From the NCBI RefSeq assembly GCF_054482595.1, contig NZ_CM137008.1: a stretch of DNA of 64,000 bases; one strand, written 5' to 3'. Below are positions 6,001 through 15,000 of this stretch, in pieces. The position numbers are program-made. How positions within the stretch are numbered: the stretch's first letter is position 1; every line of letters starts with the position of its first letter.

Positions 6001-9000
6001 GTTGGCAAAATCGAAAAAAATAAACGGCGCTATCCGTGGGCGCAATTCGTTATTGACGGCAATGGACAGGGACGCGTTGCCTGGCGCTTGCCGGAGCAGA
6101 GTTCAACCATTCTGGTGCTGAATAAAGCTGGGCAAATTCAGTGGGCAAAGGACGGCAGCCTGACGCCGGAAGAGGTAGATCAGGTCATTGCGCTGGCGCA
6201 GAAACTGATCAATGAATAAAAAACTCAAAGGATTGAGGGCGTTAGTGAGATGAAGCTGGTTGAACACTACATCATGCGTGGTACGCGCCGTCTGGTGCTG
6301 ATTATCGTCGGTTTTCTGATCTTTATTTTCGCCAGCTACTCCGCACAGCGTTATCTGACCGAAGCGGCAAATGGGACATTAGCACTTGATGTTGTGCTGG
6401 ATATCGTTTTCTACAAAGTGCTGATTGCACTGGAGATGTTGTTACCTGTTGGACTGTATGTGTCAGTTGGCGTGACGCTAGGGCAGATGTATACCGACTC
6501 GGAAATTACCGCTATCTCTGCGGCGGGGGGCAGTCCGGGACGCTTGTACAAAGCCGTTCTTTATCTGGCGATACCGCTAAGTATTTTTGTCACCCTTCTG
6601 TCGATGTATGGTCGTCCGTGGGCTTATGCGCAGATTTATCAACTGGAGCAGCAGTCGCAGTCGGAGCTGGATGTTCGCCAGTTGCGGGCAAAGAAATTTA
6701 ACACTAACGATAACGGACGAATGATCCTTTCGCAGACGGTTGATCAGGATAATAATCGCCTGACTGACGCGCTGATTTATACTTCTACTGCCAATCGAAC
6801 CCGCATTTTCCGCGCCCGTTCGGTTGATGTGGTTGACCCATCACCCGAGAAACCGACCGTTATGTTGCACAACGGCACTGCCTATCTTCTCGATCATCAG
6901 GGTCGTGACGACAACGAACAGATCTACCGTAATCTGCAATTACATCTGAATCCGCTGGATCAAAGCCCTAACGTCAAACGCAAAGCAAAATCGGTCACGG
7001 AGCTGGCGCGCTCCGCCTTTCCTGCCGATCATGCCGAACTGCAATGGCGACAAAGCCGTGGCCTGACCGCATTGTTGATGGCGCTGCTGGCCATTTCATT
7101 AAGTCGGGTAAAACCGCGGCAGGGGCGATTTTCAACGTTATTGCCACTGACGTTGCTGTTTATTGCCATTTTTTATGGCGGCGACGTCTGCCGTACGCTG
7201 GTGGCTAACGGCGCGATTCCTCTCATTCCTGGTTTGTGGTTAGTGCCCGGACTCATGCTAATGGGCCTGCTGATGCTGGTTGCACGCGACTTCACTTTGC
7301 TGCAGAAATTTTCCCGATGAATGTTTTCAGTCGCTATTTAATCCGTCATCTCTTTCTCGGTTTTGCCGCCGCCGCAGGGTTATTGCTGCCGCTTTTTACT
7401 ACCTTCAACCTGATTAACGAACTGGATGATGTCAGCCCGGGCGGTTATCGCTGGACTCAGGCGGTGCTGGTGGTGCTGATGACCTTACCGCGTACACTGG
7501 TCGAACTTTCGCCGTTTATCGCCTTATTGGGAGGGATTGTTGGCCTGGGGCAGTTATCGAAAAACAGTGAGCTTACCGCCATTCGCAGCACGGGGTTTTC
7601 TATCTTCCGTATTGCACTGGTGGCGCTGGTTGCCGGGATATTGTGGACTGTTTCGTTAGGCGCGATAGATGAGTGGGTGGCGTCGCCATTGCAGCAACAG
7701 GCGCTGCAAATCAAATCGACCGCCACCGCGTTAGGGGAGGACGATGACATTACCGGCAATATGCTGTGGGCCAGGCGCGGCAATGAATTTGTGACGGTGA
7801 AATCGCTGAATGAACAGGGCCAGCCGGTGGGCGTGGAGATTTTTCATTATCGTGACGATCTCTCGCTCGAATCCTACATTTATGCACGCAGTGCCACCAT
7901 TGAAGACGACAAAACGTGGATCCTGCATGGTGTGAATCATAAAAAATGGCTGAATGGCAAAGAAACGCTGGAAACATTAGATAATCTTGCCTGGCAATCG
8001 GCCTTCACCAGTATGGATCTTGAAGAGTTATCAATGCCGGGCAATACTTTTTCTGTCCGTCAGCTTAATCATTACATCCATTATTTGCAGGAAACCGGGC
8101 AACCCAGCAGCGAATACCGCCTTGCACTGTGGGAAAAACTGGGGCAACCCATCCTGACCCTGGCGATGATTTTGCTGGCTGTGCCGTTTACCTTTAGCGC
8201 CCCGCGCTCGCCAGGGATGGGTAGCCGTCTCGCTGTAGGCGTCATCGTTGGCTTACTCACCTGGATCAGCTATCAAATCATGGTCAATCTGGGTTTGCTA
8301 TTTGCGTTGAGCGCACCTGTTTTCGCGCTCGGTTTACCGGTAGCGTTTGTGTTGATGGCGTTGAGCCTGGTGTATTGGTATGACAGACAATATTAAACCC
8401 GCCGTGGCGCAACACCACAGCGGGCTCACATTACTGCTTCAGAGTAGCAAATGCTTGAATGATGGCATCGATTTGCTCACGACTGTGGGCAGCGTTTACG
8501 CTACAGCGCAGCAGCGTGATGCCTGCAGGCGCGGCAGGTGGCAGGATAAGATTCACATAAACGCCCAGCGAAATAAGCTCGCGCCAGATGCGTAAACCGT
8601 CCTCTTTCGAACCGATTATTACCGGCACTACCGGGCTAATATGTGAACTTAACTCATAACCCAGTTTTTGCAGACCGTCATACAGATGGTTGGCATTATC
8701 CATCAGCTTTTGCCGCAGCTCTGGTTGTGTGGCAATAGTTCTTAACGACGAGCGCACGGTCGCAATGCAGGACGGAGAAGGAGAGGCGGTAAAAATATAC
8801 GGGCGGCTGCCGTAGCGCAGCACTTCCATCGCTTCCGAACCGACAGCAAAACCGCCAATCGAGGCCAGACTTTTACTGAAGGTGCCAACGATAATATCCA
8901 CATCATCTTCAACGCCAACGGCTTCAGCCAGTCCGCGCCCCGTTGCGCCTAACACGCCAAACGAATGCGCTTCATCGACAATCAAATAACCACCGAGACG

Positions 9001-12000: not shown

Positions 12001-15000
12001 GGAACTGGACGCTGGAGCGCAACATCGGCTTCCGGTAATGCCTTATACCAGGCGTGGCTTAATACATGCAATTCGGGGTTGTTATGCGTGGCGGCATTGA
12101 CCAGCGGCAACCACTCATCACCAGTGATAATGGCAGCGGGCTGGCAACTTGCCAGTAAACCCTGCAGTTTGGCGCTCCAGGAATCCCGCTGACCGACGCC
12201 CATTGGAATCGCCAACGGGACGGCGACTAAGCCGGCATACTGGCAGGAAAAAAAAGCCTCTACGAACCCGCTACTGGTTTCGGCAATCAGTGCCACGCGA
12301 TCGCCTTTTTTCAGGTTCAGCGATAACAACCGCTTCGCACCAGCTTCGGCACGCGCTTTTAACGTCTGATATTCCAGTTGATCTTCAAGTTGGCAACGTC
12401 TGTCATAAAAATTCATTCCAGCGCTACTCAGAGCGGCGTAGTCCAAAGCATCAACCAGCGTTGGAAAATCGGCATAGCGCATAGGTAGGGAATGCGTAAA
12501 GATTTTATTAGACATATACACCACGAAAAAATTGGATATCAAAAATAAAATGACAATAATGCGGTGGATTATATAGGTATAAAAGATAAATGAGATAGTA
12601 TTTTCATTGGTGTGATATTGAACATTGATTAAAATAATGCTTTAAATCTTAACTCTGTTTATTGTGAATAATATTTAATTTATGAATATATTAAGATAAT
12701 GCCCTGGTGGGTCGCATTAAATCCACAATAGTCATGTTGATCGGCTAACGGTGGCGCTGGTGTATCGTAATTATTCATAAATATTATTTTATTTTTCCTT
12801 ATATTCATTGCGTGGATAGTTAAGGTACCGTCCGTTGCTGTTTATTTTCAGCATTAATTATTTGTTATCCACTAAGCTATGGAACGCGATCTGCTGATGA
12901 TTAAAATTGAAAAAGTAATAAATAAAAACGACTTAAAGGCATTTATCGCTTTTCCGTCATTACTTTATCCCGACGATCCAAACTGGATACCCCCTTTATT
13001 CATTGAACGCAACGAGCATTTGTCTGCGAAAAATCCGGGGACGGACCATATCATCTGGCAGGCGTGGGTGGCAAAAAAAGCGGGGCAGATAGTTGGGCGT
13101 ATTACCGCGCAAATAGATACCTTGCACCGCGAGCGTTACGGCAAAGATACCGGTCATTTCGGCATGATTGACGCCATTGATGATCCGCAGGTTTTTGCCG
13201 CGTTGTTTGGCGCAGCGGAAGCGTGGTTGAAGTCACAAGGTGCAAGTAAGATCAGCGGTCCTTTCAGCCTGAATATCAATCAGGAAAGCGGATTACTGAT
13301 TGAAGGTTTCGATACACCACCCTGTGCGATGATGCCGCACGGTAAACCGTGGTATGCCGCGCATATTGAACAATTGGGTTATCACAAAGGCATTGATTTA
13401 CTGGCGTGGTGGATGCAGCGAACCGATCTCACTTTCTCTCCGGCGCTAAAAAAACTGATGGATCAGGTGCGCAAAAAGGTGACCATTCGCTGCATCAATC
13501 GCCAGCGGTTTGCCGAAGAGATGCAGATCCTGCGTGAGATTTTCAACTCTGGCTGGCAGCACAACTGGGGATTTGTGCCGTTTACCGAACATGAATTCGC
13601 GACCATGGGCGACCAACTTAAATATCTGGTGCCGGACGATATGATCTACATCGCTGAGATTGATTCTGCACCCTGCGCGTTTATTGTCGGCTTGCCGAAC
13701 ATCAACGAGGCGATTGCCGATCTGAACGGATCGCTCTTTCCCTTCGGCTGGGCAAAATTGCTGTGGCGTTTGAAAGTCAGCGGTGTGCGAACTGCGCGAG
13801 TACCGCTGATGGGCGTGCGCGACGAGTATCAGTTCAGCCGCATCGGCCCGGTGATTGCGCTGTTATTGATTGAAGCCTTACGCGATCCGTTTGCCCGCCG
13901 GAAGATCGATGCGCTGGAGATGTCATGGATCCTCGAAACCAATACAGGCATGAATAACATGCTGGAACGCATTGGGGCGGAGCCGTACAAGCGTTACCGA
14001 TTGTATGAAAAGCAGATTTAATACCAGCTAACTCAGGTTCATCTCCAGCGGCACCGCCGAGCGAATCAAATGGTGGCCTTCCAGCTCGATATCGTGGAGA
14101 TTCTTTTTCACGGTCCGCACATGATCGCGTGCTGCGCGCTGGGCGACGTGCGGCAGCCGCTGCAACACCGCGTTGTAGATCCGCGCATGCTGGCGATCGA
14201 TCTGCTTTTTTTGCTGTGGTCGATGGTAGAGATTATTTACGCTGGCAAACACTGAATTAAACATCAGGTCGGTCAATGATTGCAGCGTAAACACCAGCAC
14301 CTGATTGTGAGAAGCCTGACAAATGGCGAGATGGAAAGCGTGATCCAACTGCGCATGTTCGATCAGCGAAATCTCTTTGTTGTTCTCACTGGCGGCGAGC
14401 ATTTTTTCATAACAGCGGGTTATCACAACAAAATCAGCCTGCGTTCCCAGCGTTGCCGCAAGCCTTGCCGATTCGCCCTCCAGTAATGCGCGAACGTCGA
14501 GCAGATCGTACAGCGTTCGCGGCTGCGTACTGAACAGATGGATCAGCGGGCTGGTGTCCTGCACCCGATTAAGCCGTGCGACACGAGAATCGCGACCCTG
14601 CGCCGTTTCAATAATCCCGCGCCCGCGCAGCACGGTCAGCCCTTCACGCAGTGCGGAGCGTGAGAAGCCGAGCTTTTCACACAGTCGACGTTCCGAGGGA
14701 AGCGGCTGACCGACCTTCAGTACGCCGTCGATAATTAACCGTTCGATACTCTCTGCAACCACTTCGCAAATAGGGCGACGTTCATCTTTCATTCCCGGAC
14801 CTCGTGCACAGGTAGGACCAATTTTTCTGTACTTAACTCGCAAAACACGCACATCACGTAAGTGATTATGTTACATCAATTTAACATTGAGTTAACCAAG
14901 ACAAGGTCACAGAGCTGGAAAAAAAATGGTCTGACCGGTAGCTAAAGAGATAGACGAAAACGAAAAGCCCGCTTAATAACTGTTCACAGAAGCAGCGCGC

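What the first reader, a model, noticed from the sequence alone, without database searches (positions are those of the whole stretch)
8431..14021. Five-gene ceramide-synthesis-like module: Spt-like synthase, dedicated ACP, acyl-AMP ligase, reductase and yghO acyltransferase
Four minus-strand genes are translationally coupled (ATGA and TAATG overlaps): an acyl-AMP/ACP ligase (YTSGSTRFPRGV), a Rossmann-fold epimerase/dehydratase-type reductase (GATGFIG), a small ACP (DLGLESI) and a PLP-dependent alpha-oxoamine synthase (GTFSKS) whose conserved blocks resemble serine palmitoyltransferase rather than BioF or Kbl. Divergently transcribed is yghO, an acyltransferase-like protein. This is the same gene content as the Caulobacter crescentus dihydroceramide pathway (Spt, ACP, ACP-synthetase, CerR, GNAT-type bCerS). 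E. coli is not known as a sphingolipid producer, so the product and conditions of expression are open. Homologues may already have been noted bioinformatically in non-K-12 E. coli; I cannot confirm that.
Basis: partly seen in the sequence, partly recalled or inferred. Interest (0 to 1): 0.8.

Follow-up and report, generated by a model that had tools for sequence, protein, structure and literature searches.

The report
E. coli's known ceramide-synthesis gene cluster
This is the sphingolipid (ceramide) gene cluster that most non-K-12 E. coli carry; it has already been published, annotated and partly tested biochemically, so the finding is correct but not new, and the lipid E. coli makes from it has still not been identified.

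Summary

- **Already characterised.** The window's proteins are 96-100% identical to E. coli BL21(DE3) ECD_02850-02854. Padilla-Gómez et al. 2022 (PMC9386255) named these yghO/aca, aasR, epi, acpR and spt. They showed that AcpR carries 4'-phosphopantetheine and that AasR+AcpR+Spt make 3-oxo-sphinganine.
- **Synthase.** It passes NCBI's serine palmitoyltransferase model and fails the BioF and Kbl cut-offs.
- **YghO.** It has no Pfam hit, but its model is a confident tandem-GNAT fold. The published comparison gives 44% identity to Caulobacter bCerS.
- **Prevalence.** The block is present in 4067 of 5426 complete E. coli genomes. In K-12 an IS5 element sits in place of most of the locus.

Three things go beyond the finding:
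- The conserved unit is larger. It also includes LptF2/LptG2 permease paralogues (drawn for E. coli UTI89 in a 2026 preprint), a MOP-family flippase-like protein, a 274-aa orphan, a YtfJ-like protein and three dTMP-kinase-fold paralogues (YghR/S/T).
- Nothing in the locus resembles the Caulobacter ceramide kinase.
- I found no report of a native E. coli sphingolipid.

The parts
8431..9603 (-). spt, serine palmitoyltransferase (PLP alpha-oxoamine synthase; Lys244, His137, Asp210/His213, Arg366)
   Evidence: NF047599 599.5 bits, above the cut-off of 500. PDB best hit 2jg2, S. paucimobilis SPT, E 1.4e-111. 389/390 identical to BL21(DE3) ECD_02854, which forms 3-oxo-sphinganine. Motif positions.
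9603..9851 (-). acpR, dedicated acyl carrier protein (Ser39 in DLGLESI)
   Evidence: ACP families at E 6e-9 and weaker, all below their cut-offs. 82/82 identical to ECD_02853, shown to carry 4'-phosphopantetheine. 1-nt TAATG overlap with spt.
9883..10797 (-). epi/cerR-type extended SDR reductase (GATGFIG at residues 9-15, Y122xxxK126); no signal peptide
   Evidence: Pfam and NCBIfam epimerase/3-beta-HSD type hits. PDB relatives are NDUFA9-like and ketoreductases. Published 34% identity to CC_1164. 292/304 identical to ECD_02852.
10794..12515 (-). aasR, fatty acyl-AMP ligase / acyl-AcpR synthetase (RefSeq start at 12482)
   Evidence: NF006624 873 bits, above the cut-off of 600. 553/562 identical to ECD_02851. 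AasREc+AcpREc+SPTEc give 3-oxo-sphinganine in vivo. ATGA overlap with epi.
12516..12878 (.). AT-rich divergent regulatory region between aasR and yghO
   Evidence: GC 0.295 (measured over 12483-12878) against 0.513 for the window. Equivalent regions in other Enterobacterales are 315-974 bp with GC 0.27-0.39. Promoter-like hits are no more frequent than chance.
12879..14021 (+). yghO, bCerS/Aca-type N-acyltransferase (tandem GNAT fold)
   Evidence: No Pfam, NCBIfam or PDB sequence hit. AF2 pLDDT 96.4, pTM 0.93; best folds are tandem GNATs at E 1e-15. Published 44% identity over 98% coverage to CC_1154. Homologues lie within 10 kb of spt-operon or lptF2/G2 genes in 48 of 52 full-length loci.
6250..7320 (+). 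lptF2, LptF paralogue of the sphingolipid locus
   Evidence: TIGR04407 319 bits. Syntenic with yghO homologues in 36 of 52 loci. Caulobacter LptF2/G2 are needed when sphingolipid is made and bind LptB; the E. coli UTI89 locus is drawn in Fig. 2B of bioRxiv 10.64898/2026.04.12.717747.
7317..8396 (+). lptG2, LptG paralogue
   Evidence: TIGR04408 306 bits. Synteny as for lptF2.
8394..8428 (.). 16-pair hairpin between the convergent lptG2 and spt genes (terminator-like)
   Evidence: sequence read.
5659..6219 (+). YtfJ-family protein with an N-terminal signal-like segment
   Evidence: TIGR01626 213 bits. Hydrophobic residues 1-19. Syntenic in Enterobacterales.
4823..5647 (+). 274-aa protein with no known family
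   Evidence: No Pfam or NCBIfam hit. Always next to yghQ in Enterobacterales loci.
3474..4823 (+). yghQ, MOP-family flippase-like membrane protein (truncated by IS5 in K-12)
   Evidence: Weak MOP flippase hit. Pfam Polysacc_synt on orthologues. K-12 truncation shown.
1059..3428 (.). yghT(-), yghS(+), yghR(+): three paralogous P-loop proteins with a dTMP-kinase fold, co-located with the cluster in several genera
   Evidence: 34-45% mutual identity. Invariant residues cluster in G-DG-GK-T, DR-P and RKPDH blocks. AF2 pLDDT 81.8; Foldseek best match is thymidylate kinase at E 3e-7. Present in 10 of 52 loci.

Best explanation
This locus is the enterobacterial version of the proteobacterial (dihydro)ceramide pathway. 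AasR adenylates a long-chain fatty acid and loads it on the dedicated carrier AcpR. Spt condenses acyl-AcpR with L-serine to give 3-oxo-sphinganine. These three steps have been shown experimentally for proteins 98-100% identical to those in the window. By inference from the Caulobacter orthologues, YghO (bCerS/Aca, a tandem GNAT) adds the amide-linked second acyl chain and the SDR Epi/CerR reduces the 3-keto group, giving dihydroceramide. The order of those two steps is disputed in the literature. The adjacent LptF2/LptG2 paralogues probably extract the lipid from the inner membrane for delivery to the outer membrane, using the housekeeping LptB; this is shown only in Caulobacter. YghQ, the 274-aa protein, the YtfJ-like protein and YghR/S/T probably flip or modify the lipid; that rests on synteny alone. 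The cluster appears silent or weakly expressed in laboratory culture. It is probably controlled from the long AT-rich divergent region between aasR and yghO.
For: Identity to the characterised BL21(DE3) proteins: Spt 389/390, AcpR 82/82, AasR 553/562, Epi 292/304, YghO 378/380. Published biochemistry: AcpREc is labelled with beta-alanine; AasREc+AcpREc+SPTEc give 3-oxo-sphinganine in vivo; SPTEc prefers acyl-AcpR in vitro (PMC9386255). Family tests: NF047599 and NF006624 are both above their cut-offs; the PDB ranking is SPT >> Kbl/BioF/ALAS; an NJ tree agrees. YghO has a tandem-GNAT fold. Published orthology to CC_1154/1162-1165 is 34-53% identity. Gene-neighbourhood test: 48 of 52 full-length loci holding a YghO homologue carry spt-operon and/or lptF2/G2 genes within 10 kb, across Enterobacterales, Pseudomonas, Nitrosomonas, Roseovarius and MAGs of other phyla. 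The block is retained at 95-99% nucleotide identity in 4067 of 5426 complete E. coli genomes, and the neighbouring yghQ-lptG2 block in 4091. The LptF2/G2 role in Caulobacter comes from bioRxiv 10.64898/2026.04.12.717747.
Against: I found no paper reporting a sphingolipid from wild-type E. coli. In BL21(DE3), which carries the chromosomal cluster, over-expressing SPTEc alone gave the same lipid profile as empty vectors, so the native genes are not detectably active under those conditions. YghO and Epi from E. coli have not been assayed. K-12 lost most of the locus to an IS5-associated deletion with no known defect. The E. coli Epi has no signal peptide, whereas Caulobacter CerR is reported to be periplasmic. 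The Arg378 position of S. paucimobilis SPT is Leu in the E. coli enzyme; the enzyme is nevertheless active.
Confidence: 0.85

Rival explanations
1. The cluster makes a related but non-ceramide product in its native setting. Candidates are a free or phosphorylated long-chain base, or an N-acyl amino-alcohol built from another amino acid or chain length. On this view YghO and the accessory genes do something different from the Caulobacter pathway.
For: No native product is known. AasREc is reported to have narrower specificity than AasRCc. The accessory genes differ from Caulobacter: there is no CpgB-type (LCB5/DAG-kinase) ceramide kinase in the locus, and instead there are three dTMP-kinase-fold paralogues, a 274-aa orphan and a YtfJ-like protein.
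Against: SPTEc uses L-serine and palmitoyl thioesters to give 3-oxo-sphinganine. YghO is 44% identical over its full length to bCerS. It keeps the same divergent arrangement with the spt operon across many taxa.
Confidence: 0.1
2. In E. coli the cluster is a silent, dispensable remnant on its way to loss and makes no lipid under any natural condition.
For: It is deleted in K-12 and is not held at >=80% coverage in about a quarter of complete genomes. It shows no detectable activity in BL21(DE3) in complex medium.
Against: Intact, named CDSs are annotated in every genome sampled across the identity range. The proteins are 62-88% identical across Enterobacterales genera, and synteny persists despite rearrangements and different chromosomal neighbours. 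The cloned E. coli enzymes are active.
Confidence: 0.05
3. The synthase is a BioF or Kbl paralogue and the cluster serves biotin or threonine metabolism.
For: It belongs to the same alpha-oxoamine synthase superfamily; the bioF model scores 333.8 bits.
Against: It is below the bioF and Kbl cut-offs and above the Spt cut-off. It is 46.5% identical to S. paucimobilis SPT against 33-34% to E. coli BioF and Kbl, and it falls in the Spt clade. Its enzymatic product is known.
Confidence: 0.01

Closest known systems
E. coli BL21(DE3) ECD_02850-ECD_02854 (yghO/aca, aasR, epi, acpR, spt), Padilla-Gómez et al. 2022, Front Microbiol 13:961041
   Same: It is the same locus in another strain: identical gene order and neighbours (pitB ... 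glcC) and 96-100% protein identity.
   Different: Only strain-level substitutions. That paper describes the cluster as a feature of E. coli B strains (ETEC B7A, BL21(DE3)). Here it is found in 4067 of 5426 complete E. coli genomes.
Caulobacter crescentus ceramide pathway CC_1162-1165 + CC_1154 (Spt, AcpR, CerR/Epi, AasR, bCerS/Aca) with LptF2/LptG2 (CC_1156/1155)
   Same: It has the same five biosynthetic families (published identities 53, 41, 34, 42 and 44%) plus LptF/LptG paralogues and a flippase-like gene in the locus.
   Different: E. coli lacks LptC2 and the CpgA-D/CpgB head-group genes. It carries YghR/S/T, a 274-aa orphan and a YtfJ-like protein instead. Its Epi has no signal peptide. 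Native lipid production has been shown in Caulobacter but not in E. coli.
Sphingomonas paucimobilis / S. wittichii serine palmitoyltransferase (PDB 2jg2, 2x8u)
   Same: Best solved relatives (E about 1e-111, 46.5% identity). The PLP lysine, the His/Asp/His residues and the Arg390 equivalent are conserved.
   Different: The Arg378 position is Leu in E. coli. The E. coli enzyme prefers acyl-AcpR to acyl-CoA.
E. coli BioF and Kbl (alpha-oxoamine synthases)
   Same: Same fold and the same PLP chemistry.
   Different: 33-34% identity. Below the family cut-offs and in a different clade.

Membership tests
Bacterial serine palmitoyltransferase (NCBIfam NF047599, beta/gamma-proteobacterial type) | Scores above the curated equivalog cut-off and better than on the BioF, Kbl and ALAS models | tested here: met
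   599.5 bits against a cut-off of 500. bioF 333.8 (cut-off 426), Kbl 297 (460), ALAS 219 (338.55).
Bacterial serine palmitoyltransferase (NCBIfam NF047599, beta/gamma-proteobacterial type) | PLP-binding lysine and the catalytic His / Asp-x-x-His / Arg residues of SPT | tested here: met
   Lys244, His137, Asp210/His213 and Arg366 align with S. paucimobilis Lys265, His159, Asp231/His234 and Arg390. The residue roles are from my own knowledge of the SPT literature. The Arg378 equivalent is Leu.
Bacterial serine palmitoyltransferase (NCBIfam NF047599, beta/gamma-proteobacterial type) | Condenses L-serine with a palmitoyl thioester to give 3-oxo-sphinganine | not testable with these tools
   Published for the BL21(DE3) enzyme, which differs from the window's at 1 of 390 residues.
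AcpR (specialised ACP of sphingolipid synthesis) | Small PP-binding protein with the conserved Ser, encoded immediately upstream of spt and translationally coupled to it | tested here: met
   82 aa, DLGLES39I, 1-nt overlap with spt. The identical protein is 4'-phosphopantetheinylated.
AasR (acyl-AcpR synthetase, fatty acyl-AMP ligase family) | FAAL-family adenylating enzyme clustered with acpR-spt | tested here: met
   NF006624 873 bits, above the cut-off of 600. Same operon. Needed with AcpREc and SPTEc for 3-oxo-sphinganine in vivo.
CerR/Epi (bacterial ceramide/ketosphinganine reductase) | Extended-SDR Rossmann protein with a Ser-Tyr-x-x-x-Lys catalytic set, homologous to CC_1164, in the spt operon | tested here: met
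   GATGFIG, ISSL, Y122ANSK126. NDUFA9-like and ketoreductase relatives. Published 34% identity over 94% coverage to CC_1164.
CerR/Epi (bacterial ceramide/ketosphinganine reductase) | Reduces the 3-keto group of 3-oxo-sphinganine or oxo-ceramide | not testable with these tools
   I found no assay of the E. coli protein.
bCerS/Aca (bacterial ceramide synthase) | Full-length homology to Caulobacter CC_1154 | not tested
The published BLAST result is E 1e-107, 44% identity, 98% coverage against ECD_02850, which is 378/380 identical to the window's YghO.
bCerS/Aca (bacterial ceramide synthase) | GNAT-type acyltransferase fold | tested here: met
   AF2 pLDDT 96.4, pTM 0.93. Top PDB folds are tandem GNATs (2wpw, 5kf1, 7q3a, MshD) at E 1e-15 to 3e-12.
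bCerS/Aca (bacterial ceramide synthase) | Genomic association with sphingolipid genes across taxa | tested here: met
   48 of 52 loci of at least 19 kb have spt-operon or lptF2/G2 genes within 10 kb of the YghO homologue.
bCerS/Aca (bacterial ceramide synthase) | N-acylates the long-chain base | not testable with these tools
   I found no assay of YghO.
LptF2/LptG2 sphingolipid transporter permeases | LptF and LptG paralogues encoded in the sphingolipid locus, additional to the housekeeping pair | tested here: met
   TIGR04407 319 bits and TIGR04408 306 bits. Linked to YghO homologues in 36 of 52 loci. Transport function and LptB binding are shown only in Caulobacter.

The most novel reading that the evidence does not exclude
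Most E. coli strains and many other Enterobacterales (Serratia, Erwinia, Pluralibacter, Hafnia, Cedecea and others) can make an outer-membrane sphingolipid that has never been detected because the locus is silent in culture. Its head group would differ from Caulobacter's ceramide phosphoglycerate. It would be built or handled by the co-conserved, uncharacterised set YghR/S/T (dTMP-kinase fold), YghQ, the 274-aa orphan and the YtfJ-like periplasmic protein, and exported through LptB-LptF2G2.
Probability: 0.3. Interest if true: 0.65.

Novelty: already known. Interest (0 to 1): 0.2.

Why it matters
E. coli is the textbook example of a bacterium without sphingolipids, yet three quarters of sequenced strains carry a complete and partly validated ceramide pathway with its own Lpt-type exporter. 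K-12, the strain used for nearly all lipid biochemistry, has lost it. That has been known since about 2010-2022, so this finding adds no discovery. The practical value lies in what remains open. The native lipid, its head group, its inducing conditions and its role in the gut or in infection are all unreported. The accessory genes (yghQRST, the 274-aa gene and the ytfJ-like gene) are unexplained candidates for steps in the pathway.

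Tried and rejected
- **YghO by sequence.** Pfam, NCBIfam and PDB sequence searches on YghO found nothing. Only the structure model revealed the fold.
- **Genome scan.** A 14-sequence alignment worked.
- **Caulobacter sequences.** Caulobacter was not among the 80 best loci, so I could not recompute identities to CC_1154 and related genes. 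I relied on the published table.
- **Stankeviciute et al. 2022.** The paper (PMC8891067) is not held.
- **YghR/S/T as CpgB equivalents.** I considered whether they stand in for the Caulobacter ceramide kinase CpgB and rejected homology. CpgB is an LCB5/DAG-kinase-type enzyme, whereas YghR has a dTMP-kinase-like P-loop fold. A functional analogy remains untested.
- **RNA and promoter scans.** Rfam found no RNA element in 1-16000. Promoter and terminator consensus hits were at chance level, apart from the long hairpin at 8394-8428.
- **NJ tree.** Bootstrap support for the Spt clade was only 71/100 with two outgroup sequences. The curated HMM cut-offs are the stronger test.

Full report
**What is there.** The window is E. 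coli chromosome. It is 100% identical to strain XH990, between pitB and the glc operon. The ligase/reductase junction is an ATGA overlap and the ACP/synthase junction is a TAATG overlap. The reductase/ACP junction is a 31-nt gap. yghO is transcribed divergently across a 363-396 bp region of 29.5% GC.

**What the proteins are.**
- The 390-aa synthase passes NCBI's curated serine palmitoyltransferase equivalog (NF047599, 599.5 bits, cut-off 500). It fails the bioF, Kbl and ALAS cut-offs.
- Among solved structures it ranks Sphingomonas SPT (376.7 bits) above Sphingobacterium SPT (264), cysteate acyltransferase (205), Kbl (203), BioF (about 175-182) and ALAS (171).
- It is 46.5% identical to S. 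paucimobilis SPT and 33-34% identical to E. coli BioF and Kbl, and it falls in the SPT clade of an NJ tree.
- The PLP lysine and the His, Asp/His and Arg residues align with those of the Sphingomonas enzyme. The Arg378 position is Leu.
- The ligase is a fatty acyl-AMP ligase (NF006624, 873 bits).
- The 82-aa protein is an ACP.
- The 304-aa protein is an extended SDR with the Rossmann motif and YxxxK, and NDUFA9-like relatives.
- YghO matches no Pfam, NCBIfam or PDB sequence. With an 81-sequence alignment it folds at pLDDT 96.4 into two GNAT domains. Its best matches are tandem-GNAT acyltransferases at E about 1e-15.

**It is already known.** RefSeq annotates the gene as 'spt: serine palmitoyltransferase' in every genome sampled. 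Padilla-Gómez et al. 2022 (PMC9386255) describe this cluster in E. coli BL21(DE3): ECD_02850 = yghO/aca, 02851 = aasR, 02852 = epi, 02853 = acpR, 02854 = spt. Their main results are:
- AcpREc incorporates beta-alanine, showing it carries 4'-phosphopantetheine.
- Co-expression of AasREc, AcpREc and SPTEc yields 3-oxo-sphinganine.
- SPTEc prefers acyl-AcpR as its thioester substrate.
- The five dihydroceramide genes are clustered together only in C. crescentus and E. coli BL21 among the genomes they compared.
- Their Table S2 gives identities to the Caulobacter proteins: Spt 53%, AcpR 41%, Epi 34%, AasR 42%, Aca/YghO 44% at E 1e-107.

The window's proteins are 389/390, 82/82, 292/304, 553/562 and 378/380 identical to the BL21(DE3) ones.

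**An independent test of the YghO link.** The YghO family is large, with 6442 cluster representatives at E<=1e-3. I fetched 80 genomic loci that encode homologues and scored them with the window's 13 proteins. Among the 52 loci with about 10 kb on both sides:
- 28 carry spt, usually in the same divergent aasR-epi-acpR-spt / yghO arrangement.
- 36 carry the LptF/LptG paralogues.
- 48 carry at least one of these partners.

The loci span Enterobacterales, Pseudomonas, Nitrococcus, Nitrosomonas, Roseovarius and MAGs assigned to Gemmatimonadota, Nitrospirota and Desulfobacterota. In Nitrosomonas only lptF2/G2 are adjacent, which matches the published separate location of spt there.

**The unit is larger than the finding.** Upstream on the + strand lie yghQ (MOP-flippase-like), a 274-aa protein with no family, a YtfJ-family protein with a signal-like N-terminus, and LptF and LptG paralogues. 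Before them are three paralogous P-loop genes, yghT, yghS and yghR.
- All of these travel with the spt/yghO genes in Serratia, Erwinia, Pluralibacter, Shimwellia, Cedecea, Mangrovibacter, Rosenbergiella and Pseudocitrobacter. The gene orders and chromosomal neighbours differ between these genera.
- In Caulobacter the sphingolipid locus likewise holds LptF2, LptG2, LptC2 and a putative flippase (PMC11324152).
- A 2026 preprint shows that LptF2/G2 are needed when sphingolipid is made and that they bind LptB. It draws the E. coli UTI89 operons alongside. The Lpt part of the extension is therefore also already noted.
- I found no paper connecting yghQ, yghR, yghS or yghT with sphingolipids.
- YghR models as a dTMP-kinase-like fold. 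It is not the LCB5/DAG-kinase type of the Caulobacter ceramide kinase CpgB, and no such kinase is in the locus.

**Distribution.** The spt-yghO block is held at >=80% coverage by 4067 of 5426 complete E. coli genomes, nearly all at 95-99% identity. The yghQ-lptG2 block is held by 4091. In K-12 an IS5 element replaces everything from the 3' part of yghQ to the 5' end of yghO. This explains why the pathway is absent from the standard account of E. coli lipids.

**What remains open.** I found no report of a sphingolipid from wild-type E. coli. In BL21(DE3), which has the chromosomal cluster, expressing SPTEc alone gave the same lipid profile as empty vectors. This implies that the native acpR and aasR are not expressed enough under those conditions. 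The long AT-rich divergent region is conserved as a feature across Enterobacterales (315-974 bp, GC 0.27-0.39). It is a plausible site of silencing and regulation, but that is inference only.

**Verdict.** Novelty is nil for the five-gene module. The residual interest lies in the unidentified native lipid and the uncharacterised accessory genes.

Noticed in passing
window 1059-3428: yghT(-), yghS(+) and yghR(+) are three paralogous P-loop proteins (34-45% identical to one another) whose invariant residues cluster in G-DG-GK-T, DR-P and RKPDH blocks. RefSeq calls two of them 'dTMP kinase'. The YghR model has a thymidylate-kinase-like fold (18% identity). They sit next to the sphingolipid genes in several Enterobacterales genera, in Pseudomonas marginalis (L022) and in a betaproteobacterial MAG (L045). 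Their substrate is unknown.
   Followed up: partly
window 3474-6219: yghQ (MOP-flippase-like, about 7 hydrophobic segments), a 274-aa protein with no Pfam or NCBIfam match, and a YtfJ-family protein with a signal-like N-terminus are syntenic with the cluster throughout Enterobacterales. They are candidates for flipping or periplasmic handling of the lipid. Gammaproteobacterial loci lack LptC2.
   Followed up: partly
window 6250-8396: RefSeq names these paralogues 'lptF' and 'lptG', and they pass the TIGR04407/04408 cut-offs. They are the second, sphingolipid-locus copies (LptF2/LptG2), not the housekeeping LPS permeases. The name is likely to mislead.
   Followed up: partly
L002 11354-11716 (Serratia liquefaciens) and L004 11323-11682 (Erwinia billingiae): A small DAGK_prokar (dgkA-like) gene lies immediately downstream of yghO in these genera but not in E. 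coli. From my own knowledge, E. coli DgkA phosphorylates ceramide in vitro, so this could be a ceramide kinase in those species.
   Followed up: no
window 12483-12878: The divergent aasR-yghO intergenic region has 29.5% GC, against 51.3% for the window. The equivalent regions in ten other genomes are 315-974 bp and also AT-rich. This fits a silenced or heavily regulated promoter region, but consensus promoter hits were at chance level.
   Followed up: partly
window 8394-8428: A 16-pair GC-rich hairpin fills the 34-nt gap between the convergent stop codons of lptG2 and spt. It is probably a bidirectional terminator.
   Followed up: no
window 12482-12515: RefSeq starts the acyl-AMP ligase at 12482 (562 aa). 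The NF006624 profile alignment and the orthologue lengths (568-584 aa) favour the ATG at 12515 (573 aa).
   Followed up: partly
window 9883-10797: The Epi/CerR homologue begins its Rossmann motif at residue 9 and has no signal peptide, whereas Caulobacter CerR is reported to be periplasmic (PMC11087976). Either the E. coli enzyme acts in the cytoplasm or it is exported unconventionally.
   Followed up: no
L019 (Shimwellia pseudoproteus) 10001-11128: This species has a second YghO paralogue (74% identity) on another contig, with none of the sphingolipid partners within 10 kb.
   Followed up: no
L005 4950-5930 (E. coli K-12 ER3413): In K-12 an IS5 element sits where the 3' end of yghQ, the 274-aa gene, the ytfJ-like gene, lptF2, lptG2, spt, acpR, epi, aasR and the first codons of yghO lie in other strains.
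   Followed up: yes
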